DNA of 64,000 nt from an uncultured delta proteobacterium (GTDB lineage Bacteria > Myxococcota_A > Polyangia > Haliangiales > Haliangiaceae). The stretch spans positions 1,632,001 to 1,696,000 of the forward strand of contig CAWKDB010000010.1 in assembly GCA_963848295.1 (NCBI GenBank), given 5' to 3'. Position 1 is the first letter of the stretch, and each line of letters opens with the position of its first letter. Below are positions 22,878 to 55,131 of this stretch, piece by piece. The position numbers and the translations under genes were made by a program. The notes below the pieces were generated by a model. The model ran no database searches, was not told the origin of the DNA, and was given only the letters and a program-made list of their open reading frames with translations.

Positions 22878-23825
22878 CTACGGTGCGACCACCGTCGCCA
22901 ACGCTCGGTATTGCTCCGCGTAGTCGCCGGTCGTCGCAGCGGCCCATCGCCGATATCTCGTTGCTGCGGTCATGCGCAGCTTCGCCGGGACGGCGTTCAG
23001 CAGCGCGACTCGCCCGGACACGTCGGGCTTGCCGTTCCAGTCCTGCACGAGGAACTGATGGAGCAGGCTGACGTAGTTCGACATCGGCTTCGCGCTACCG
23101 GCGAGCGACGCGGCGAGGAGGCTCCGCACGACGAGCGCGTTCGGGGCATCGCCGCCCCGCGCGAGCTCGAACACGTGCTGGTCGTACAGCGCCCACGTAT
23201 CTCGCTTCCCGGCGTCGACCGCGGCCGTGGCGATCACGTCGGCGATCGCCGCGGCGACCTCGGCGCGGGTCAACGCGGTCTTCGACTCGAGCGCGGCCCG
23301 CGCGAAGGCCTCGCCGATCGGATGCGGCGAGTGCAGCGCGTCGGTCACGAGCTCTGCCATCGATCGCGTCGTGTCGACGCAGCGCGCGAGGTCCTGGACT
23401 TCATCAGCCGCGGCGTCGGCGACTTGCACCACTGCGAGCGGTGTCCACGTGTGGTCGTCGCGCGCCAGCAAGAACACGAGCAGGTCGCCGCGGTGAAACG
23501 CGAGCTCTTGCCACTGATCGTGGAACGCGCGCGCCTTGTCGATCGGCCGCTGGTAGTGCAGCTGCTTCGTGAACGGCAGCTCGAGCGCATCGCCGGCCTT
23601 GAGCGGCCCGCGCAGCGCGCGATCGACCTCGAGCCGCAGCCGGGATGGCACCTCGCCTTTGGCGTTGGCGTGCCCCGAAACGACGCCTTCGACCCGGGCC
23701 AGCACTACCGGCGTCGCCGGATCGAGCAGCATCGGGCCGAAGTCGACGTCCCACAGCAGCTGGACCGGCTCGGCCGACGCCGGCGCGCTCGCGATCACGA
23801 ACGCCGCGATGACGAGCCTCCGCAC
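22878..23825 (-). CDS. Hypothetical secreted protein
   Basis: Signal peptide; TAGACT-N7-GTG. Confidence 0.7.
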   Translation of the reverse strand: MRRLVIAAFVIASAPASAEPVQLLWDVDFGPMLLDPATPVVLARVEGVVSGHANAKGEVPSRLRLEVDRALRGPLKAGDALELPFTKQLHYQRPIDKARAFHDQWQELAFHRGDLLVFLLARDDHTWTPLAVVQVADAAADEVQDLARCVDTTRSMAELVTDALHSPHPIGEAFARAALESKTALTRAEVAAAIADVIATAAVDAGKRDTWALYDQHVFELARGGDAPNALVVRSLLAASLAGSAKPMSNYVSLLHQFLVQDWNGKPDVSGRVALLNAVPAKLRMTAATRYRRWAAATTGDYAEQYRALATVVAP

Positions 23826-36720: not shown

Positions 36721-37514
36721 CTACGGGCACGAATACATCGCGGCGACGGGGAGATCGATCGGCGTCGGCGTCGGCGTGCCATCGCCGAGCTCGCCGTACG
36801 TGTCATCGCCCCAGCACCGGATCGCGTCGCCGGCCAAGACCACACACGCATGAGCGTTGCCTACGACGAGCGCCGATGCCGTAGACGGCAGCGGCACTTC
36901 GATCGGCGATGGCGACATCGCGGGCGTCAACGCACCGATACCGAGCTCGCCGGTCGTGTTGTCACCCCAGCACCACACGGTGCCGTCGCTCTTGCGCGCA
37001 CACGAGTCTCGATCGCCGAGCCCGATCTCGACCGCGCCGGCAAACGCTACGCCGTCGAGCGCGACGACGACCTCGGTCGGCGTCGGCACCTGCATGGCGC
37101 CGAGGTTGCCGTCGCCGAGCTGCCCGAGCTCGTCGTCGCCGAAACAGAACACGGTTCCGTCGCTCAGCCGGGCGCACGTGTGGATGTCCGACGATGACGA
37201 CTGGACGACATTGGCCAGCGGCACGGCGTCCGGATACGGCTGGTTGTTCGTCGAGCCATCGCCGAGCTGGCCATTCGTATTCGAGCCCCAGCAGCGGAAG
37301 TTATCACCGTGCCGTCGCCGAGCTGCCCGAAGCCGTTCGCGCCCCAAGACCAGATCGTGCCATCGCCGCGCAACACGCACGTATCGGCGCCGCCCGCCGA
37401 GATCTGAGCGATGCACGCGGAGCTCGTCGCATCGCCCGCGTCGATGTGGTGATCGAATCCGGCTCGCCCGCACCCCGCCATCCAGCCCATGCAAAGCAGC
37501 CAACGGCGCACCAT
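36721..37514 (-). pseudogene. RCC1-repeat lipoprotein broken by an out-of-frame junction near 37308
   Basis: MAGC lipobox and WGANGFGQLGDGT in one frame; CWGSNTNGQLGDG repeats continue in another. Confidence 0.8.
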
Positions 37515-37560
37515 CCCGACTCTACACGTACGCGGGTCGGAGCCTAGAATTCGGACACGA

Positions 37561-37647
37561 GCTTCAATGGCCCCGTCGACGAACGTCGACGGAACGGGCT
37601 GCGTCTTGTGAGACACGACCGGATGCGAAGCTTCAATGGTGCCGTCG
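37561..37647 (-). CRISPR. Orphan CRISPR-like mini-array (one full repeat, 34-nt spacer, one partial repeat)
   Basis: Minus-strand repeat GTTCCGTCGACGTTCGTCGACGGGGCCATTGAAGC (37561-95) with hairpin and ATTGAAGC end; second copy from 37630 matches 16/18 nt; no cas genes in window. Confidence 0.65.
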
Positions 37648-37688
37648 GTGTTCGTTCATCCGCCTCCGCCCATGCGCGCCGGCAGCGC

Positions 37689-40253
37689 ATGTCAGACCTC
37701 CGTGCCAGCGTCGCGGCCGTGGAGACTTCGATCGCGTCGATCCCTTCGCGCCCCTTCGCGGCCACGACCGTGGTCGCCGACGAGGCGTTCGCGGTGCTCG
37801 CCGACCTCGCGTCGAGGCGGCGAGAGACCGAGCCGATCGCGGCGATGCTCGCTGCCCGCGCGCTGCGCGTGACGGCCGGCGCGGACTTCGCGGTCGCGCG
37901 CGATGCGCTCGAGGCGTTGATGAGGCGGGCGGAGTCGGCGCGCGACGTCGAGCTACGGCCGGCGCGCGGCGGGTATCGCGCGGCGCCGAGTGCGGGGCGG
38001 CGCGGCAGCTACGACGTGTGGCTCGCGAGCGATCGCGAGCTCGAGGGCAGTTGTAGCTGTCCTGATTTCGGCAAGGCGTCACTCGGGTTGTGCAAGCACT
38101 TGCTCTCCGCGCTGGCGCTGCCGCGGCGGCGCACGTCGCCGCGCGCGTTGCGCTGGGATCCGGTGCGCCCGCTCACCGGGCCCGGCGATCGGCTGGAACG
38201 GCTGTGGCTGAACGCCGGCGCGCGCGTGTCGCCCGCGATCGCGATGCTGTTCCAGGCCGCGCCGGCGGGGCGGCCGATCGAGCCGGGCGCGGTCTCCGGC
38301 GCCGCGCGGCTCACCACGATCGAAGCGCTGCTCGCGGCGTGCCGTCGCGATCCGCAGCTCGCGGAGCCGGCGATCGCACCGCTGCTCGAGGACGAGCTGG
38401 CGGCGTCGCGTCGGCGGCTCGGTTCGGTCGGGTCGCACAGCCGGCTCGCCGGGCGCGAGCTCGACCGCGCGTTGCGCGGGCTGAAGCGGAAGCTGTTCCC
38501 GTATCAACGCGAAGGCGTCGCGAGGTTCCTCGGGGCCGGCCGACTGCTGCTCGCGGACGACATGGGGCTCGGCAAGACGGCGCAGGCGATCGCGTCCTGC
38601 CACGCGTTGCTCGCGAGCGGCCGGATCGAACGCGCGATGGTGGTCGCCCCGGCGTCGCTCAAGCCGCAGTGGGCGCGCGAGTGGCGCGCGTTCACCGACG
38701 TCGAGTTCGTGACCGTCGAGGGGCCGCCGAACGAGCGCGAGCGGATGTATCGCCGTCGCGGCGGCGGGATCTTGCTCGTCAACTACGAGCAGCTGCTGCG
38801 CGACCTACCGCATGTCCAGGCCTTCGCGCCGGAGCTCGTGATCCTCGACGAGGCGCAGCGGATCAAGAACTGGGAGACGCGCACCGCCGGCGTCGTGAAG
38901 CGGCTGCAACCGGAGTGGCGCTTGGTGTTGACCGGGACGCCGATGGAGAACCGGCTCGACGAGCTGTCGTCGATCATGGAGTGGGTCGACGAGCACGCGC
39001 TCGAACCGCGCTGGCGGCTGTCGAGCTGGCACGCGATCCGCGCCGACGGCTCGAAGGAGATCATCGGTGCGCGCAACCTCGATACGTTGCGCGCGCGGCT
39101 CGCGCCGGCGATGTTGCGTCGCATCCGCGGCGACGTGCTCGCGCAGCTCCCGCCGCGCCGCGACACGCGGATCCCGGTCGCGCTGACCCCGCTGCAGCAA
39201 GACGCGCACGACGAGCTCAACCTACCGATCGCGAGGCTCGCCGGCATCGCGAAGCGAAGGCCGCTGGCCCGGCCGGAGTTCCTGAAGTTGATGACGCTGC
39301 TCGCACAGCAGCGGATGACCTGCAACGCGCTCGCGCTGCGCGACTTCATCGCGACATGGCCGATGTTCGCGCGGAGTCGAAAGCGCACGAGCTCGCTGAT
39401 CGAGGCGCTCGGTAGCCCCAAGCTCGAGGATCTGAGAGAGCGGCTCGTCGAGCTCGTCGTCGACCAGGGCCGCAAGGTCGTGGTGTTCAGCCAGTGGCGG
39501 CGCATGCTCCAGCTCGCCGACTGGACCTGCGGCGACGTGCTGGAGCGCCGCGGCCTGCGCGCCGTGTTCTTCACCGGCCAGGAGTCACCGCGCCGCCGCG
39601 ACGAGAACCTGGTCGCATTTCACGACGACCCGGCGGTGCGCGTGCTGTTCGCGACCGACGCCGGCGGCGTGGGGCTGAACCTCCAGCGCGCGGCGAGCTG
39701 CTGCATCAACCTCGAGCTGCCGTGGAACCCCGCGGTGCTCGAGCAGCGCGTCGGCCGGATCTTCCGGCTCGGCCAGGATCAGCCGGTCGAGGTCTACAAC
39801 TACATCGCATCGGGCGGCATCGAGGAGCGCATCGCGCACTTGGTCGGGGACAAGCGCGCGCTGTTCACCGGGCTGTTCGACGGCACGAGTGACGAGGTGC
39901 CGTTCGACTCGTCGGGATCATTCCTGTCCCGCGTCCACGAGGTCTTGCGTCCCGAGCTCGCCGACGGCGAAGACCCCGACGTCGAGAGGGTCGACGATGC
40001 TAGCGGCGCCGAGCCTGACGAGCTCGAGCCCGAGCCCACACCGCCCACCAACGCCCGTGCGTCGCTCGACCCGGCGGCCATCGCCGAGCTCGCCCGGACG
40101 GCATCGCAGCTCGAAGCGCGAACCACCGGAGACGGCCGGATCGTATTCGAGCTGCCCGCGCCGGCGGCTGGTGCGTTGAGTGGCTTGCTTCGCGCGCTGG
40201 CGGCGGCGCTCGACGCGCCTTCGCCTGCCCCCGGGACTGTTCTAGAGCGTTGA
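37689..40253 (+). CDS. SWIM zinc finger + SNF2-family helicase
   Basis: CSCPD...LCKH; YQREG, DDMGLGKT, DEAQRIKN, LTGTPMEN, GLNLQ, QRVGRIFR. Confidence 0.93.
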   Translation: MSDLRASVAAVETSIASIPSRPFAATTVVADEAFAVLADLASRRRETEPIAAMLAARALRVTAGADFAVARDALEALMRRAESARDVELRPARGGYRAAPSAGRRGSYDVWLASDRELEGSCSCPDFGKASLGLCKHLLSALALPRRRTSPRALRWDPVRPLTGPGDRLERLWLNAGARVSPAIAMLFQAAPAGRPIEPGAVSGAARLTTIEALLAACRRDPQLAEPAIAPLLEDELAASRRRLGSVGSHSRLAGRELDRALRGLKRKLFPYQREGVARFLGAGRLLLADDMGLGKTAQAIASCHALLASGRIERAMVVAPASLKPQWAREWRAFTDVEFVTVEGPPNERERMYRRRGGGILLVNYEQLLRDLPHVQAFAPELVILDEAQRIKNWETRTAGVVKRLQPEWRLVLTGTPMENRLDELSSIMEWVDEHALEPRWRLSSWHAIRADGSKEIIGARNLDTLRARLAPAMLRRIRGDVLAQLPPRRDTRIPVALTPLQQDAHDELNLPIARLAGIAKRRPLARPEFLKLMTLLAQQRMTCNALALRDFIATWPMFARSRKRTSSLIEALGSPKLEDLRERLVELVVDQGRKVVVFSQWRRMLQLADWTCGDVLERRGLRAVFFTGQESPRRRDENLVAFHDDPAVRVLFATDAGGVGLNLQRAASCCINLELPWNPAVLEQRVGRIFRLGQDQPVEVYNYIASGGIEERIAHLVGDKRALFTGLFDGTSDEVPFDSSGSFLSRVHEVLRPELADGEDPDVERVDDASGAEPDELEPEPTPPTNARASLDPAAIAELARTASQLEARTTGDGRIVFELPAPAAGALSGLLRALAAALDAPSPAPGTVLER

Positions 40254-47990: not shown

Positions 47991-48560
47991 ATGCGGCCGA
48001 TCATGTTTAGCCTAGCTGTCGCGCTCGCAGTCCCGCCTGCCGCGGCGGATACAGCGCTCGCACCCGTCATCGATCTCGGGACGATCCCGGCGCACTGCCG
48101 TCCGCTCGCTTCCGCGCCGAGTAACGCGACCACCCGGGGTCCCCTACTCGATGCGTACATCTCGGTCGCGAGCTGCGAGGTCCTCGTCCGTACCCACGCA
48201 CTCGCGCTCGCGACAACGCCGCAGTCGCGAGATGCGCTCGATCACGCCGTGCGACCATCGCTGGAGCTTCTCGGCTACGTGATCGCGCACGGTGATCTCG
48301 CGCATCAGATCGCGGCCCAGCGCGCGAAAGCCGACACGTATGCCGGCATGGTCGTGTTGTTGGCGACCACGGTGTCGTCACGGTCGTTGCCGCTGACCAA
48401 CGCGATGACCATCGACGAGTACGTCCAGCGATTTCGCTATGCCGACGCACTCACCAGGACGTGGCGGGTTCGCGCAGATGCCGCGAACCGCGAGGCATCG
48501 CGGCTGGCGACTCGGACCGAGCCGCTCGAGCGAGCGCTGCCTCAGCTCACGCGGGGCTAG
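47991..48560 (+). CDS. Hypothetical secreted protein
   Basis: RBS and signal peptide MRPIMFSLAVALAVPPAAA. Confidence 0.7.
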   Translation: MRPIMFSLAVALAVPPAAADTALAPVIDLGTIPAHCRPLASAPSNATTRGPLLDAYISVASCEVLVRTHALALATTPQSRDALDHAVRPSLELLGYVIAHGDLAHQIAAQRAKADTYAGMVVLLATTVSSRSLPLTNAMTIDEYVQRFRYADALTRTWRVRADAANREASRLATRTEPLERALPQLTRG

Positions 48561-48645
48561 CGCGAATGGGAGGATCCTGGCCGGGTACGCGAGCTGCGTC
48601 GCTTGATACACGCGAATCCGTGTGAGTACCGGATCATGTCCTCGG

Positions 48646-49422
48646 TCACATCGACGGCTGGCCGTTGCCAGCTACGCGCTCCGCTCGCTGCGGCATCACG
48701 ACGATACAGATCAGGATGAACGCGGCGAGCACAACCGACGCCGTGTAGCGACTGAGCTCGAGACCCCCGTTTGCGTGCGGCTTGTCGAGCAGGTCGCCAA
48801 CCGTCGCGCCGAGCGGTCGTGTGAGGATGAACGCAGCCCAGAACAAGAAGGTGCGTGACACCTTTGTGAACAAGTATGCGGCGAGGACGAGCAACAAGCC
48901 GCCCGCAAACACCAGCGCGCCGCCTTCATAGCCGAGGCCGAGACCGGTGTCGGAGTCGGCCATCCAATCGCCGAGCGCGGTGCCTAGCGTCTGCGAGAAC
49001 AGGATCGTCGTCCAGTAGAACAGCTCAGCCTTACGTGACGTGATCGACGCGATCGAGACCGAACCGAGCATGCGATGCCACAGCGCGAGCGTTCCGAACA
49101 GCAACGCGATCAGGATCGCCGTGCCGCCGAGGTAACCGATGCCCAACGACCGATCGAGTAGGTCGGCGAGTGTCGTCCCGACGGTCGTGGTGGCGACGAT
49201 CACGACCCAGAACAAGATCGGGTGGAACCGCCTCGCGACGACCTGCGAGCCGACAGCGACCGCAAAGACCGCTGCGAAGATGAGCGTGCCGACGAGGTAG
49301 CCGAGGCCCATCGACATCGTCACCGCATCGCCGCCGGTCTCACCGAGCGTGGTCGCCGCGATCTTGATGACCCAGAACCCGATCGTAGCTTGCGGTACCT
49401 TACCGAGCGCGACTGCGACCAT
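48646..49422 (-). CDS. DUF347/COG4705 membrane protein
   Basis: KVP..T..FW.IKI.ATTLGETGGD; SQTLGTALGD; TRPLGATVGD. Confidence 0.9.
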   Translation of the reverse strand: MVAVALGKVPQATIGFWVIKIAATTLGETGGDAVTMSMGLGYLVGTLIFAAVFAVAVGSQVVARRFHPILFWVVIVATTTVGTTLADLLDRSLGIGYLGGTAILIALLFGTLALWHRMLGSVSIASITSRKAELFYWTTILFSQTLGTALGDWMADSDTGLGLGYEGGALVFAGGLLLVLAAYLFTKVSRTFLFWAAFILTRPLGATVGDLLDKPHANGGLELSRYTASVVLAAFILICIVVMPQRAERVAGNGQPSM

Positions 49423-49691
49423 GCGCGACGCTACTGCGCTTCCATGATCGGATCGAGCGGTACGGCGAAGAGCTCGTGCACCGTCGCGACCCTGTCGCCC
49501 ATACTGAGGAGCTTCTGGCATCGCGGTGATTGCGCGCGGAATCGCGAAGATAGCGCTCGCCATCGCTCGCGGTGCTCCGCCCGGGCGACCGCGCTTGCAC
49601 ACGCCGCAATACCGGAGACCGTCAGTGGCCGTGGTCCTGTCACGCTCGCTAACCAACAATCACGCGGCAGAGTCGTGGTTCTACTTGAATC

Positions 49692-49706
49692 TGAAAACGA
49701 CTTTCA
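49692..49706. promoter_or_regulatory. Fur-box-like inverted repeat
   Basis: TGAAAACGACTTTCA in an AT-rich patch, adjacent to the -10 TACCGT. Confidence 0.5.
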
Positions 49707-49719
49707 ATACCGTTGCCGC

Positions 49720-50100
49720 GTGCGGGGCGTCCATTCTCCTTACGGCGCGCTGATCCGCTTGCGACGCCTGGAACACGGTCGCACGCTCCGCGACGTCGCG
49801 AGCGCGGTCGGGATCTCTCATCAATACCTCGCTGACGTCGAGATCGGCGTAGCTGGGCCGTTGAGGAAGTCCTTCGAACGCGCGCTGCTGCGATGCCTCC
49901 CCACCGTTTCGAAGCGAGAGCTCGACCACGCGCGCGACCTGTCGAAGCCGGTGCTCATCACTCTCAAGAACACGCCCAAGCAGTACATCGAAGTCACCAG
50001 AGCGATCGCGCGCCGGTACGCCCGCCGAGATCTGAGCCGCGAGCAAGTCGAGGAGCTACTTCGCATCCTCCATCAAAGCCATCGGCGGTCGGGACGATGA
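49720..50100 (+). CDS. XRE-family HTH transcriptional regulator
   Basis: YGALIRLRR...TLRDVASAVGISHQYLADVEIG. Confidence 0.85.
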   Translation: MRGVHSPYGALIRLRRLEHGRTLRDVASAVGISHQYLADVEIGVAGPLRKSFERALLRCLPTVSKRELDHARDLSKPVLITLKNTPKQYIEVTRAIARRYARRDLSREQVEELLRILHQSHRRSGR

Positions 50101-50113
50101 CCGCGCGCTATAG

Positions 50114-51181
50114 TTAGCGTGGCGGCGAGACAACTAGCAGGTCCGATCCCTTCGAGTGCGACAAGTAGACCTTGCCCTCGCCTGTCACGACGCCGTTTCG
50201 TACGCCTTCTTCGGTTCTTACCGTCGCTGAGACCGTCAGCGCCCCTTGGCGGTCGAGGCTCGCGATGGTGAGGGTCGCCGCCTTCGCCGCGCCGGCATAG
50301 ATCGTGTGGGTCGCCGACGCGTAGTCGAGATCATCCACGCCGTCGCCCGTGTCGATCGAACCGAGCGTAGCCCCGTCGTGTCCGGCGTCGAGGATCTCGA
50401 CTCGCGTGCTACATGCAACGATAAGGAATCCTTCCGTCTCGGCGAGTCGAAGGCCATGTGGACCTTGCTCGCCGCACGAAGGCTTCCAGGTCGCGACCGT
50501 CTTGTGCGTATCGACGTCGATCGCGAGCGTTAGGTCCTTGTCTTCCAAGTTCGTGTAGAAGCGCCCGCGAGTCGCATCCGGTGCAAAGCCTTCTGGCTCG
50601 CCGTCGAAATCGAGCTTTGCCTTCTGCGCGAGCGTCGCGCCGTCGAGGATCCGGATCGACTTGTCACGCGGGGTGGTCACCCAGACTTCCTTCGTCTTCG
50701 CGACATACGAAATGCCGTCCGGCATCGAGTCGAGCTTGCCGCACGCACCTTTCGCCAGCTTGACTTCGTCGATCGCGCACACAGTGGAGTCGCCGCGATT
50801 CCCGACGTATACCGTGCCGTCGGCGCCGAGCGTGGCGGAGCTCGGTCCGACGGTGCGCTTCTTGCCCCTCCGCTCCACCTCTCGGGTCACGAAGCCTTCG
50901 ATGCGCGACACCTTGCCGGTCGACACATCGACTACGTCGACCGATCCGGTGTTTCCGGCTGGCACCCAGACGGTCTTGGTGCGCGGGTTGTACAGCAGAA
51001 AATCCATCCCGATACCGTCGGGACCGCCGCCGGGCAGTGCGATCTCGCCGGTCGTGTACCCGTTGGCACGTGGCGGCTCCCGGGTCGCCGAGCCCGGCGT
51101 AGGCTTGGCTACCGTTCCGGATGACTTCGATTTGCAGCCGACGAGCAGCAGCGCGATGCTGAACAGAATGTACCTTCGCAT
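50114..51181 (-). CDS. YncE/YVTN-type beta-propeller lipoprotein
   Basis: LLVGC lipobox; MDFLLYNP...GSVDVVD; PDG, PEG and PHG blade motifs. Confidence 0.82.
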   Translation of the reverse strand: MRRYILFSIALLLVGCKSKSSGTVAKPTPGSATREPPRANGYTTGEIALPGGGPDGIGMDFLLYNPRTKTVWVPAGNTGSVDVVDVSTGKVSRIEGFVTREVERRGKKRTVGPSSATLGADGTVYVGNRGDSTVCAIDEVKLAKGACGKLDSMPDGISYVAKTKEVWVTTPRDKSIRILDGATLAQKAKLDFDGEPEGFAPDATRGRFYTNLEDKDLTLAIDVDTHKTVATWKPSCGEQGPHGLRLAETEGFLIVACSTRVEILDAGHDGATLGSIDTGDGVDDLDYASATHTIYAGAAKAATLTIASLDRQGALTVSATVRTEEGVRNGVVTGEGKVYLSHSKGSDLLVVSPPR

Positions 51182-51248
51182 GGGTGGAACGTTGCACGCG
51201 ACAAGTGGCCATACAACCTGTCGCTGACCGAGCCTCCTACATGAAAGA

Positions 51249-51557
51249 TCATTTACCCCGCTCGAACGAAGCCGCACTCGCGTCCGGGGCGATGAAGTCG
51301 CGCAGCGGCGCTCGAATTCGCCCGGTGAAGTAGCACCCGAAGCCAGGATAACGGTCGAGCTGTGGGTGGGCCTCGGCGATCGCGAGTCTGCGATGCGCAC
51401 CATGACCGATCGCGATCGCGGACCGAAACTCGAAATCGGTCTCGTTGACCCAGTCGATGTCGACGAGCGTGACCCACTGATCGGGATAACGGCGACGCAC
51501 CTCATCCCACGTGAGGCGTTCAGCGTTTTCGGTCACGCCAATAGATCCGGTTGACAC
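51249..51557 (-). CDS. Small DUF5678-like protein (start may be 51536)
   Basis: LTWDEVRRRYPDQWV...G.YFTG. Confidence 0.6.
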   Translation of the reverse strand: MSTGSIGVTENAERLTWDEVRRRYPDQWVTLVDIDWVNETDFEFRSAIAIGHGAHRRLAIAEAHPQLDRYPGFGCYFTGRIRAPLRDFIAPDASAASFERGK

Positions 51558-51584
51558 GTAGCGCTCGCTCCCATCGATGTCACT

Positions 51585-52100
51585 TCACGCAGCCCGCTGA
51601 AGAGTGGCTCCGTCGATGCGGTAACCGCGTTTCTTCGACCGTGGACGAGGCTGGTCCGCCGTGAATGCAGGTGCAACGCCTTCGATCGGCGGATTTCGTT
51701 CGTGGAGTCGGAAGAATGCATGCGACCGGATCGCGTAGGCATCCGGTCCCTTCACCGCTTCGGCGCCGTTTTCCCAGCGGTTGACCGTCGCGCGCACGAC
51801 GCCCAAGCGATGCGCGAACTCCTCCTGCGTGTCGCCGACCAACTTGCGGAGGTAACGAACCTCCATTGGAGCGAGCTCTTGGAGTTGGAGGAGGTCGACG
51901 GCGAGCAGAATCGCGATCTGATCCAAGAGCCCGCCGTACATGCTGACGTTCCCGCACTTCTGGCAAACGAGTGCGGGCATGTTGTGGACGACCACCTTCT
52001 TCATGTCGAGAAGCGGTCCGACATCGTGGTCGACATGCTTCTGAACAAGGTTGGCCTTGTGACAGACCCCGCAACGGATCTCGCTGGTTTTGGTTCGCAT
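51585..52100 (-). CDS. MqsA/YgiT-like antitoxin (zinc finger + XRE HTH)
   Basis: CGVC...MPALVCQKCG; TQEEFAHRLGVVRATVNRWENG. Confidence 0.88.
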   Translation of the reverse strand: MRTKTSEIRCGVCHKANLVQKHVDHDVGPLLDMKKVVVHNMPALVCQKCGNVSMYGGLLDQIAILLAVDLLQLQELAPMEVRYLRKLVGDTQEEFAHRLGVVRATVNRWENGAEAVKGPDAYAIRSHAFFRLHERNPPIEGVAPAFTADQPRPRSKKRGYRIDGATLQRAA

Positions 52101-52103
52101 GTC

Positions 52104-52414
52104 CTATCCGTCCATGATCGTGATGAGGATGACCTGCTTGCCGAGATGATCTTTGTAGGCTCGACGCCGACCTTCGCGGTCGTCCCATCGAGCGCGGTTC
52201 CGGTGACTCGCCACGAGGTTCCAGACGCTAGCCGCGGCGCATCGGGGTACGTCGTGCAGGCTGAAGCCGTCGCCACGATCTTCTTGGCATCGAACACGCT
52301 GAAGCTTCGAGCCTTCGCACGTTTCTCGAAATGAGCATCGACGATGTTTCGGCCGCCTAGCATCGCCTCCTGGATCCAGGCGAGGGCCTCGGTAGCGTTT
52401 CTTGGACCAGGCAC
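52104..52414 (-). pseudogene. DUF4258/RelE-like toxin with a 1-nt deletion near 52160
   Basis: HFEKRAKARSFSVFD...WRVTG; restoring one base gives VGVEAYKDHLGKQVILITIMDG* ending 3 nt before the antitoxin ATG. Confidence 0.75.
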
Positions 52415-52417
52415 CGA

Positions 52418-52454
52418 ATGTAACATAGTGTTACATGAGACAGCTGGTTGTCAA
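52418..52454 (-). promoter_or_regulatory. TA promoter with palindromic operator
   Basis: ATGTAACA-TAG-TGTTACAT (52418-36); TTGACA at 52454-52449. Confidence 0.8.
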
Positions 52455-52745
52455 ACCGGTCGAGAGCCCAAGCCGAGCTTGACCGTCCTACGCGTGTGAT
52501 GGCGCGCCTCGGCAGCGTGAACCTTGTGTTGCGCGAGAAACGAGTGGTCGGGCCGTGCGGCGACAAGGACGTTCTCGTCACGTACGCGTGCAGCGCGGGA
52601 GACGCCCTCTCGATCATGATGCGAGACGTCGCCATCGGAAAGAGTGTCCGCGGCTCATCGAGGACGAAGAATTCACGCGCGGGGCTGGTGCCTCGACCTC
52701 TGCGACGCAGACGAAGAACGATGATCGTTGCATCGGCATGGCGGT

Positions 52746-52988
52746 GACCCGTTGGACGCCGACAAGCTGCGCCACGTCCTCCAGGACTTCGACACCCTGT
52801 TCGCGGTGGCCAACCCCACCGAACGCGAGCAGCTTCTGAAGCTCCTCATCAAACGGATCGTGTTCCGCGGCTTCGATGCCGAGGTAACGATGGAGCCTTT
52901 CAGCTCCGTTAACCTTCCCGGTGAAGGTTCGAAATTTCGAGCGTCTTGGCTCCGAAGGAGGGTTTCGAACCCCCGACCCGGCGGTTAA
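52746..52988 (+). pseudogene. C-terminal remnant of a large serine recombinase
   Basis: EREQLLKLLIKRIVF tail motif; frame runs into tRNA antisense; catalytic domain absent. Confidence 0.6.
52926..52971. mobile_element. Symmetric att-like junction
   Basis: GGTTCGAAA (52926-34) / TTTCGAACC (52963-71), centred on the tRNA CCA. Confidence 0.55.
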
Positions 52989-53021
52989 CAGCCGCCTGCT
53001 CTACCACTGAGCTACTTCGGA
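52947..53021 (-). tRNA. tRNA-Asn (GTT)
   Basis: 75-nt cloverleaf TCCGAAG...GGCGG-CTGTTAA-CCGCC...TTCGAAA...CTTCGGA-G-CCA. Confidence 0.97.
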
Positions 53022-53085
53022 AGAAGGGCCCTATAGATGACGCACGAGGTCGGGCCGTGTCAAGGACGGCGACCGCCGCGAACGG

Positions 53086-53943
53086 CTACTTGATGTAATA
53101 CCGGCCGACAAACGTAATGATGTAGTCGTCGCCGGCCGCTTTGAGGTCGTCGGCGAACACGATGCCGGCGTCGAACTTCGCCATCGAGTAGAAGCCGCCG
53201 ATCGCGACCGGGATGAAATCGGCAAACAGCACCTGGCCGCGCTTGCCGTTCTCACCGTTCGCGAACCAGATGTTCGCGAATTCGGTCGCGAAGAACGCGT
53301 AGATGTTCGGCGTGGCCTGGATCCCGACGCCGACCGGGAACGCGAAGGTCACCGGCTGGTTGTTGTTGAAGCCGATCGCGAGCTGGTAGCCGATCGGCGG
53401 GGGCTGGTAGTACTCGCCGAGGCCGGCGAGCGCGGTCGGGATGCCGTTGTTTCCCGTGAACACCGAGACCATCGGCGTGATCCGGTAGCGCAGCCACGCG
53501 CCGACCGACAGGCCGACCTTCGTGGCGCCGTCGAGGTTGAGGGTCAGCGCACCGGCCGCGGCGATGTCGAGCTTGTCGCGGTGGAACACGGCGTACGCGC
53601 CGTGGAACGCGAGCAGGCCGCCCGCCGAGGCGTCCGGGTTAAGGATCGCGGAGTAGTCGGCGCCGACTTCGAGGTTCGGAATCACGCCGTAGCTCGCGCC
53701 GAGCGACAGCAGCTCGGTGGTGTCGTGGCTGACGATCCCGGTCGGCGAGGTGGCGGTGACCTCGACGATCGGGATGCCGCCGTGGAGCTCGAGCTTGCCC
53801 TCGGGCGTGATCAGCGAGCGGTTGCCGATCTCGCTCGACCAATCGCTGTCGACCGGCGGCGCGGGGTCGGCGGGCGGATCGGCGAACGCGGTCGACGAGC
53901 TCAGCAGGCCGGCGCTTGCCAGCAACATCGCGCGCATCGTCAT
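53086..53943 (-). CDS. Secreted, probable outer-membrane beta-barrel protein
   Basis: Signal peptide; amphipathic strands; aromatic C-terminus FVGRYYIK. Confidence 0.7.
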   Translation of the reverse strand: MTMRAMLLASAGLLSSSTAFADPPADPAPPVDSDWSSEIGNRSLITPEGKLELHGGIPIVEVTATSPTGIVSHDTTELLSLGASYGVIPNLEVGADYSAILNPDASAGGLLAFHGAYAVFHRDKLDIAAAGALTLNLDGATKVGLSVGAWLRYRITPMVSVFTGNNGIPTALAGLGEYYQPPPIGYQLAIGFNNNQPVTFAFPVGVGIQATPNIYAFFATEFANIWFANGENGKRGQVLFADFIPVAIGGFYSMAKFDAGIVFADDLKAAGDDYIITFVGRYYIK

Positions 53944-53982
53944 CCCGAAATCATCCCGCGCGACGCGATCGGGCGGCAAGGC

Positions 53983-55131
53983 CTATCGCGCGATCTTGCC
54001 GCGGTCGCCGAGGTATTCGCGCAGCATGACTTCAGACGACACACCGCCAACGACTTGCGGCTGAGCTCGCGACCGCTCGAGTGCGAACCCGACGATCTGC
54101 TGGATCGCTTGCTCGTAGGTCCGGCCACTCGCACGCACGCATTGCGCGTAGGCGCAGCCATCGGCGAGGTCGGGGTTCGGGTTGACCTCGAGGATGAACG
54201 CCTCGCCGGTCTTGGGATCGAGGCGCATGTCGACGCGCGCGTAGTCGCGACAGCCGAGCGCCTCGTAGGCGCGCAACGCGATCGACTGGATGTTCGCGAC
54301 GATCTGCGGGTCGAGGTCGTCGACCGGGCACTTGCTCTCCATCGAGTGGTAGTCGCGAGAGAACGGATCCCACTTCGCGCGGTAGGTGATGATATTCGGC
54401 AGCTTGCGGCCTTCGTTATCGGTGCCGCCCTTGAACTGCATCTCGTACAGCGGCATCGCCTCGGGCGGATTGTTGCCGATGATCGCGCAGTGGATCTCGC
54501 GGCCTTCGATGTACTCCTCGACCAGCGCCGCCATCTTGTGATCGCTCCGCACGTGGGCGATCCGCGCATCGAGCTCCGCGCGGTTGTGGACGACCGAGCC
54601 GGCGTCGATACCGCCCGAGGCGTCTTCGTACGCGGGCTTGATCATCAGCGGATAGCGCAGATCGAGGTCTTTCGGCGCGACGTTGCCGGTGACGACGACC
54701 GCGCGTGGCGTCGGCAAGCCGGCGTTGCGCAGGATCGCCTTCGCGTGCGGCTTCTTCTGACACAGCGACAGCGCGAGCGGCCGGTTGCCGGTGTACGAGA
54801 TGCCGAGCAGCTCGAACAGCGCGGGGACGTGATGCTCGTGCTCGAGGTCGTCGTGAAACCATTCGACGAGGTTCACCACGACGTCCGGCTTGTCGGCCGA
54901 GATCGCATCGAGCATCGCCTTCAGGTCGTCTTGAATGTTGACCGCGGTCGCGTGATGGCCGGCCGCGCGCACGCAGTCGGCGATCAGCTCGATCTCCTCG
55001 GCGACCGTATCCCACGGCTCGATGATCTTCGACGAATCCCAATCCGGGCTTCGTCGGCCTTCGCGGCGCCAGTGCTCGACGACGTCCTCGTCGGTCTGGT
55101 TCCACAAGATCAATACGCGTGCGCGATCCAT
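53983..55131 (-). CDS. D-Ala-D-Ala ligase-like ATP-grasp enzyme
   Basis: KPAYEDASGGI; VEEYIEGRE; DYARVDMR; LEVNPNP. Confidence 0.9.
   Translation of the reverse strand: MDRARVLILWNQTDEDVVEHWRREGRRSPDWDSSKIIEPWDTVAEEIELIADCVRAAGHHATAVNIQDDLKAMLDAISADKPDVVVNLVEWFHDDLEHEHHVPALFELLGISYTGNRPLALSLCQKKPHAKAILRNAGLPTPRAVVVTGNVAPKDLDLRYPLMIKPAYEDASGGIDAGSVVHNRAELDARIAHVRSDHKMAALVEEYIEGREIHCAIIGNNPPEAMPLYEMQFKGGTDNEGRKLPNIITYRAKWDPFSRDYHSMESKCPVDDLDPQIVANIQSIALRAYEALGCRDYARVDMRLDPKTGEAFILEVNPNPDLADGCAYAQCVRASGRTYEQAIQQIVGFALERSRAQPQVVGGVSSEVMLREYLGDRGKIAR

What the first reader, a model, noticed from the sequence alone, without database searches (positions are those of the whole stretch)
37561..37655. 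Orphan single-spacer CRISPR-like mini-array in a divergent promoter region
Seen: a 35-nt repeat with an 8-bp stem (CCGTCGAC-GAAC-GTCGACGG) and ATTGAAGC terminus, a 34-nt spacer (37596-37629), and a second copy keeping only the handle-side 18 nt or so. No cas genes are in the window, and I saw no spacer match here. Known: hairpin repeats ending ATTGAAGC are typical of type I-G (I-U)-like arrays, and solitary mini-arrays can act in trans as regulatory guides or as RNA anti-CRISPRs. Inference: either an array remnant or a functional handle-spacer-hairpin RNA using Cascade encoded elsewhere.
Basis: partly seen in the sequence, partly recalled or inferred. Interest (0 to 1): 0.7.

Follow-up and report, generated by a model that had tools for sequence, protein, structure and literature searches.

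The report
Stranded type I-G CRISPR mini-array
These 88 bases are a real CRISPR repeat–spacer–half-repeat unit of the type I-G family, but no Cas gene and no target for its spacer were found in this incomplete genome, so it is likely a silent leftover of a small regulatory CRISPR RNA gene of an already known kind.

Summary
The unit has a 35-nt hairpin repeat (37561-37595), a 34-nt spacer and an 18-nt half repeat, and is unique in the genome. The repeat belongs to the type I-G family: its pattern occurs in 23 of 90 genus-mates, mostly in arrays, two of them checked beside I-G cas genes. Read in crRNA sense (minus strand), the half repeat comes first and keeps the 5' handle, and the full repeat comes last. 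That is the creA/creR layout. A relative (G046) has this layout upstream of cas3g with a TTG-flanked 16/17 target. Here no cas gene or array was found in the 85%-complete assembly, and the best PAM-plus-seed match is at chance level. No phage match was found, and none of 85 loci of the neighbouring SNF2 gene family carries the unit. Best reading: a stranded, likely inert regulatory mini-array (0.45). Close rival: the cut-off end of an ordinary array (0.35). Activity in trans: about 0.12. The scan noted this same unit from an overlapping window (e1-9887457) and an orphan mini-CRISPR in another genome (e1-8259793). Interest is low; the G046 element is the better test case.

The parts
37630..37647 (-). 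First repeat in crRNA sense (psiR1-like). Only the 3' 18 nt survive, including the 8-nt ATTGAAGC handle. The 5' hairpin arm is gone (nominal repeat span 37630-37665).
   Evidence: 17 of 18 identical to the nearest array repeat; no stable fold
37596..37629 (-). 34-nt spacer-like sequence, shorter than all 109 array spacers measured in relatives (35-44 nt); no target found
37561..37595 (-). Second repeat in crRNA sense (psiR2-like), with intact 8-bp stem, loop and handle. It differs from the nearest array repeat by one deletion and two substitutions that extend the predicted stem to 11 bp.
37521..37550 (+). Sigma-70-like promoter match (9 of 12), pointing antisense to the crRNA direction; function untested
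   Evidence: 0.1 expected in shuffles
36721..37515 (-). Neighbour: RCC1-repeat protein gene, split over two reading frames; not part of the CRISPR unit
37690..37711 (+). Neighbour: conserved promoter-like motif TGTCA(G/C)-N10-nAnnnT of the SNF2 gene. It marks the left edge of the SNF2 cassette, 42 nt beyond the end of repeat homology.
   Evidence: same motif in 10 of 11 homologous loci checked
37719..40253 (+). Neighbour: SWIM-SNF2 helicase gene; its homologues do not carry the mini-array

Best explanation
This is a type I-G CRISPR half-repeat, spacer and full repeat with no cas gene or target found in its assembly, and it is likely a stranded, now inert copy of a creA/creR-type regulatory RNA gene. 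Shown: repeat family, orientation, layout, and the failure to find cas genes or a target. Inferred mechanism in the ancestor: a minus-strand transcript gave an RNA of about 69 nt (8-nt handle, 34-nt guide, 3' hairpin cut and held by Csb2). It would have loaded into I-G Cascade and repressed a nearby promoter through a TTN PAM and a partial seed match, as the G046 element is predicted to do. Inferred history: the cas operon and the target were lost or replaced, with the SNF2 cassette now starting 42 nt beyond the half repeat. How the hairpin-less first repeat would be processed is not shown.
For: Family: the repeat pattern is in 23 of 90 genus-mates. Arrays in G077 and G083 lie beside cas2 or cas4g/1g and csb1. 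The nearest repeat differs by 3 changes. Layout: first repeat keeps the handle and second keeps the hairpin, as described for creA and creR (PMC8501985 passages; PMC9458426 passages; 10.1101/2023.03.10.532045 passages). Working analogue: G046 has the same layout about 560 bp upstream of cas3g, and its spacer matches a TTG-flanked site about 140 bp away at 16 of 17 nt with the mismatch at position 6. That is 15 seed matches against a maximum of 9 in 5,000 shuffles. G056 has a third two-repeat unit of this layout. The spacer is shorter than all 109 array spacers. All changes in the repeats avoid the 8-bp stem of the second repeat and both handles. Inert today: no csb1, cas1, csb2 or RAMP match and no cas3g over cut-off. 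No tblastn hit for 11 cas proteins from relatives. No array. The best TTN-plus-seed run is 11, reached by 32 of 300 shuffled spacers and 30 of 109 foreign spacers.
Against: The defining feature of such RNAs, a PAM-flanked promoter target, was not found in the genome, in 48 cas-region loci of relatives, or at a promoter in 90 genus-mates (6 hits against 5 for the control pattern). Handle-only first repeats also arise by plain truncation: 3 of 23 leader ends of longer arrays have one, and one is cut at an insertion sequence (L193). 7 of 18 array trailer ends keep an intact handle, so the intact last repeat discriminates only weakly. No minus-strand promoter was detected. The unit is not conserved: no orthologous copy in 137 family genomes. 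The G056 unit also has no target found.
Confidence: 0.45

Rival explanations
1. It is the cut-off trailer end (or an internal fragment) of an ordinary type I-G array. A deletion or cassette replacement coming from the leader side removed the cas genes, the leader and the other spacers and ended inside the second-to-last repeat. The spacer is an old invader memory and the unit was never regulatory.
For: In relatives the leader and cas genes lie on the side where this unit is truncated (G014, G077, G083). 3 of 23 leader ends of longer arrays are handle-only. The SNF2 cassette boundary is 42 nt away. Arrays occur without a csb1 match in several genus-mates. No regulatory target was found.
Against: 11 of 18 trailer-end repeats have a damaged handle, whereas this one is intact. 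The two repeats differ from each other at 3 of the last 19 positions, while neighbouring array repeats are mostly identical. The spacer is shorter than all 109 array spacers. No viral protospacer was found (best 25 of 34, no PAM), though databases are sparse for these hosts.
Confidence: 0.35
2. It is an active crRNA-like regulator working in trans, with I-G Cascade and its target in the unassembled or withheld part of the genome, or supplied by a visiting mobile element.
For: The assembly is 85% complete with 8,000 bases withheld. Stem, loop and both handles are intact. csb1 is present in 21 of 90 genus-mates.
Against: The described crlRNA genes sit inside or beside their cas locus, close to their target (10.1101/2023.03.03.530964 passages; 10.1101/2024.12.27.630466 first part). 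Both flanks here are on a 4.9-Mb contig with no cas gene. No target in 7.8 Mb and no promoter in crRNA sense.
Confidence: 0.12
3. It is an RNA anti-CRISPR (Racr or Cracr) carried by a mobile element, soaking up Csb2/Cas7g or silencing a host cas promoter.
For: A near-perfect repeat far from cas genes is what Racr candidates look like (PMC10651486 passages).
Against: The neighbours are an S41 peptidase, an RCC1-repeat protein, a SNF2 helicase and a repeat surface protein at flat 67-71% GC. No I-G system to inhibit was found in the host. No such repeat was found in the viral contigs examined (0 of 12; 0 of 127, scan incomplete). It has a second partial repeat, which the Racr definition excludes.
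Confidence: 0.04
4. The host keeps the hairpin as a cis element (pause site, RNA stabiliser or insulator) between the two divergent genes, independent of Cas proteins.
For: The stem is extended to 11 bp and lies just downstream of a + strand promoter-like site.
Against: There is no T-tract. The SNF2 gene has its own conserved promoter-like motif beyond the unit. None of 85 SNF2 loci has the unit.
Confidence: 0.04

Closest known systems
creA / creR two-repeat regulatory mini-CRISPRs (PMC8501985, PMC9458426, 10.1101/2023.03.10.532045; passages read; I-U examples are mentioned there for Figure S7, of which only the legend was seen)
   Same: Two divergent repeats around one spacer; the first repeat is more degenerate but keeps the 8-nt handle, the second keeps the hairpin; no leader.
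   Different: No linked cas operon, toxin gene or PAM-flanked promoter target was found; the second repeat also keeps its handle intact.
crlRNA mini-arrays and CRISIS units (10.1101/2023.03.03.530964 passages; 10.1101/2024.12.27.630466 first 10,000 characters)
   Same: Intergenic mini-array beside a gene whose helicase core matches defence-system helicase models.
   Different: Those lie within cas loci and target the adjacent promoter; here the best local PAM-plus-seed run is 4, reached by 1,291 of 5,000 shuffles. In the first paper the upstream repeat is the conserved one, the reverse of this unit.
Type I-G CRISPR repeats (PMC9638904 passages: 36-nt repeat, Csb2 leaves an 8-nt 5' handle, TTN PAM)
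   Same: Repeat sequence, hairpin and ATTGAAGC end; near-identical to arrays beside I-G cas genes in the same genus.
   Different: 35 nt, stem extended to 11 bp, only one spacer, no leader motif, no cas genes.
Racr / Cracr RNA anti-CRISPRs (PMC10651486, 10.1101/2024.10.29.618823; passages read)
   Same: Repeat-like unit away from cas genes.
   Different: No phage or plasmid context; second partial repeat present; no host system of the same type found.

Membership tests
Type I-G CRISPR repeat | Sequence matches repeats of arrays linked to I-G cas genes | tested here: met
   3 changes from the G083 repeat, whose array lies beside cas4g/1g and csb1
Type I-G CRISPR repeat | Hairpin followed by an 8-nt handle | tested here: met
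   handle definition from PMC9638904
Type I-G CRISPR-Cas system | cas3g, cas8g, csb1, csb2 in the genome | tested here: not met
   none found; assembly 85% complete; positive controls rang in relatives for csb1 and cas3g
Canonical CRISPR array | Leader with the genus motif about 45 nt from the first repeat, and several identical repeats | tested here: not met
   motif found at that offset in 11 of 19 array flanks but not evident in the 91 nt from the start of the half repeat here; only two unlike repeats
creA/creR crlRNA gene | Two divergently degenerate repeats, first keeps handle, second keeps hairpin | tested here: met
creA/creR crlRNA gene | Partial seed match to a PAM-flanked promoter site | tested here: not met
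   best run 11 genome-wide, chance level; both sites overlap predicted ORFs
creA/creR crlRNA gene | Linkage to a cognate cas locus | tested here: not met
creA/creR crlRNA gene | Processed small RNA that guides repression by Cascade | not testable with these tools
   needs small-RNA sequencing and a reporter assay
Racr (solitary repeat unit) | Single repeat on a phage or plasmid with no partial repeat within 100 bp | tested here: not met
   partial repeat 34 nt away; no mobile-element genes among the neighbours annotated; definition from PMC10651486
REP element / intrinsic terminator | Many dispersed copies, or hairpin plus T-run | tested here: not met
   single locus in the genome; no terminator match

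The most novel reading that the evidence does not exclude
The unit is a live, free-standing type I-G guide-RNA gene that has left its cas locus and silences a distant promoter whenever I-G Cascade is present, from the unassembled genome part or from an incoming element. It would be one of a small family with the cas-distant G056 unit, whose spacer resembles this spacer and its left flank (reached by 1.3% and 0.5% of 384 control spacers; post hoc).
Probability: 0.1. Interest if true: 0.6.

Novelty: new member of a known kind. Interest (0 to 1): 0.22.

Why it matters
As a relic it shows only that this lineage once carried a type I-G system, which is common in the genus. creA-like elements of type I-U/I-G have already been predicted in print (10.1101/2023.03.10.532045, text and Figure S7 legend). 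My paper searches returned no experimental test of a type I-G regulatory crRNA-like RNA, but they cover open-licence papers only and bioRxiv supplements were closed. The useful by-product is the G046 locus: mini-array, PAM-flanked target and I-G cas genes (cas3g, csb1, csb2 confirmed) together make a direct test of RNA-guided repression by type I-G Cascade.

Tried and rejected
Rfam: no CRISPR-repeat family, two chance hits elsewhere.

Linkage to SWIM-SNF2: none of 70 genome loci or 15 genus loci has the repeat, and no cas hit was found in the 70. SNF2 is present in 13 of 90 genus-mates.

Synteny through the S41 peptidase: 3 homologues, all matching only the gene itself.

Spacer as a worn leader copy (lead from e1-8259793): alignment to 19 array flanks was reached by 27% of 384 control spacers; rejected.

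Viral targets: exact 18-mer gave 0 hits. 77 loci matched 15-base seed patterns, best 25 of 34 without PAM. One had a 20-nt run outside the seed without PAM, and one had a TTG PAM at 22 of 34; all judged chance. Annotated phages gave no match and plasmids two weak partial hits.

Second guide after the full repeat: 10-base seed matches fall in the coding motif of sigma-54 activators; rejected. Shifted and opposite-strand guides gave runs of 9-10.

Shared motif with the G056 spacer: not found in 400 other class genomes (G056 was not in that sample). The 7 viral hits had no repeat.

Layout pattern: 5 of 146 other order genomes matched (G046, G056, two array ends, and damaged repeats inside the G026 array). 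2 of 400 phylum genomes matched, one an ordinary array and one without a repeat hairpin.

Expression: no RNA holder listed. Contigs laid do not span the spacer.

Full report
OBSERVATION. The window reads, on the + strand, a 35-nt repeat (37561-37595), 34 unique bases (37596-37629) and a second copy matching over 18 bases (37630-37647). On the minus strand the full repeat folds into an 11-bp hairpin followed by the ATTGAAGC end (-18.8 kcal/mol, z -3.4); the half repeat does not fold. The 18-base pattern occurs twice in the window and in none of 100 shuffles. A profile of 14 array repeats from relatives scores the full repeat 37.9 bits against 9.3 for the next site in the assembly, and the two copies are the top two half-repeat scores. 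It is a single locus, with no terminator T-run. Run X1 holds low-depth contigs of a near-identical strain across the left junction and just right of the unit, not across the spacer; I did not establish that this sample is independent of the assembly's source.

FAMILY AND ORIENTATION. The closest relatives of the neighbouring helicase are labelled Kofleriaceae, a myxobacterial family; the host's taxon is inferred from that. The repeat pattern occurs in 23 of 90 genus-mates and in none of 47 other family genomes, mostly as arrays. csb1 is found in 21 of 90. Genes beside the arrays of G077 and G083 score as cas2, cas4g/cas1g, csb2 and csb1; cas3g, cas8g1 and cas8g2 were confirmed in other loci. 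The nearest repeat (G083) differs from the full repeat by one deletion and two substitutions, which extend the stem from 8 to 11 bp. Leaders with a shared motif 45 nt from the first repeat (11 of 19 flanks), and the published 8-nt handle (PMC9638904, passages), fix the crRNA sense as the minus strand. So the half repeat is first and the full repeat last. These tallies include the unpublished genomes G037 and G038: one of the 23 repeat carriers, two of the 21 csb1 carriers, one trailer and one leader end, and part of the repeat profile and spacer controls. No conclusion depends on them alone.

NO CAS MACHINERY FOUND. G000 has 11 contigs, is 85% complete and has 8,000 withheld bases; the window lies on a 4.9-Mb contig. 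No array was found. Profile searches gave nothing for csb1, cas1, csb2 or RAMPs. For cas3g only generic helicase matches far below the cut-off appeared, while G046 passed it. The csb2 search had no positive control genome. tblastn with 11 cas proteins from relatives had no hit at E 0.001. Absence from the living cell is not proven.

NO TARGET FOUND. With the TTN PAM and every sixth base free (PMC9638904), the longest seed run in the genome is 11, at two sites overlapping predicted ORFs. 32 of 300 shuffled spacers and 30 of 109 foreign array spacers do as well. Within about 1 kb the run is 4 (1,291 of 5,000 shuffles reach it). 48 cas-region loci of relatives gave at most 9. In 90 genus-mates a 12-base seed with PAM hit 6 genomes against 5 for the control pattern, three of them in one conserved coding gene. 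Viral, phage and plasmid searches found nothing above chance.

A WORKING ANALOGUE. Searching 147 genomes of the order for the layout (handle-only repeat, spacer, hairpin repeat) gave this unit, G046, G056, two array ends and damaged repeats in one long array. In G046 the unit lies about 560 bp upstream of cas3g, its second repeat resembles the array repeat on the same contig (L328), and its spacer matches a TTG-flanked site about 140 bp upstream at 16 of 17 bases with the mismatch at position 6. No shuffle of 5,000 exceeded 9 seed matches against 15 observed. That is the signature of creA/creR/crlRNA regulators (10.1101/2024.12.27.630466, first part read; PMC8501985 and PMC9458426, passages). 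It also shows that the target test works when a target exists. Which promoter the G046 site belongs to was not established. The G056 unit sits 4 nt before an AAA ATPase gene that matches defence-system ATPase models and has no target found. That assembly is 78% complete and holds a cas3g-like fragment on another contig.

RELIC OF WHAT? For a regulatory origin: the layout; a spacer shorter than all 109 array spacers (35-44 nt); repeats that differ from each other at 3 of 19 shared positions; and changes that avoid stem and handles. The positions that changed are partly those that vary between arrays anyway. For a truncated array: leader and cas genes lie on the truncated side in relatives; 3 of 23 leader ends of longer arrays are handle-only, one cut by an insertion sequence; and 7 of 18 trailer ends keep their handle. 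I put these at 0.45 and 0.35. Both give an inert element today, about 0.8 together.

NEIGHBOURS. The SWIM-SNF2 gene (likely start 37719) is patchy (13 of 90 genus-mates). None of 85 homologous loci has the repeat. It carries its own upstream motif at 37690-37711, shared by 10 of 11 homologous loci checked, so the cassette begins 42 nt beyond the half repeat and looks independent of it. The only sigma-70-like match in 37400-37900 points rightwards, antisense to the crRNA. GC content is flat around the site, and the window's only tRNA is 15 kb away; only eight neighbouring ORFs were run against Pfam, so a mobile element was not formally excluded.

COMPARISON AND NOVELTY. It is built like a creA/creR gene but fails two membership tests (target, cas linkage), so it is filed only as a type I-G mini-array. 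creA-like elements of type I-U were reported in 10.1101/2023.03.10.532045 (passage and Figure S7 legend; figure not seen). The main texts of 10.1101/2023.03.03.530964 and 10.1101/2024.10.29.618823 do not contain the terms I-G or I-U, and PMC10651486 does not contain I-G; their supplements were not read and may list I-G cases. Searches returned no experimental I-G example.

VERDICT. Real feature, known kind, likely inert. Interest 0.22. The most novel surviving reading (a live free-standing I-G regulator) has probability about 0.1.

Noticed in passing
L146:7057-7345 (G046:C128, about 23056-23344; also L190): Type I-G crlRNA candidate with a TTG-flanked 16/17 target about 140 bp upstream, lying about 560 bp before cas3g. 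The sequence after its second repeat is a near-copy of the spacer without the seed. A small two-gene pair, one with a weak antitoxin-type HTH match, lies about 1.1 kb further left and has a homologue in G000 (C10:4234139-4234989).
   Followed up: partly
L095:786-886 (G056:C1398): Same two-repeat layout with a 30-nt spacer, ending 4 nt before an AAA ATPase gene resembling MADS/PARIS/Septu-type ATPases; no target found.
   Followed up: partly
window 37690-37711: Motif TGTCA(G/C)-N10-nAnnnT before SWIM-SNF2 genes (10 of 11 loci) has the spacing of the mycobacterial PafBC DNA-damage promoter tGTCgg(N10)tA(N3)T (PMC8635444 passages). 33 sites genome-wide against 18-27 for other spacings; some precede ORFs whose starts look like SbcD, thymidine kinase and a methyltransferase (recognised from memory, not searched).
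   Followed up: partly
window 36721-37515 (minus strand): The RCC1-repeat gene changes frame near 37290, apparently at a deletion between repeats; pseudogene or assembly error not resolved.
   Followed up: no
L219:2145 (G051), L220:799 (G082), L221:6464 (G073), L223:3764 (G057): Solitary or doubled full I-G repeats away from arrays in four genus-mates; the G073 one is two repeats almost back to back between co-oriented genes; no local targets for the two tested.
   Followed up: partly
L140:2563-3702, L146:14949-15989: A WYL-domain gene follows csb2 in both I-G loci whose downstream gene was tested.
   Followed up: no
window 48000-54000: GC dips to 0.63-0.65 next to tRNA-Asn (52947-53021), a possible small island.
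   Followed up: no
L147:329-733 (G038:C106, unpublished genome): A SNF2-like C-terminal fragment (41% identity over 142 aa) on an I-G cas contig; the only SNF2 link to a cas locus seen.
   Followed up: no
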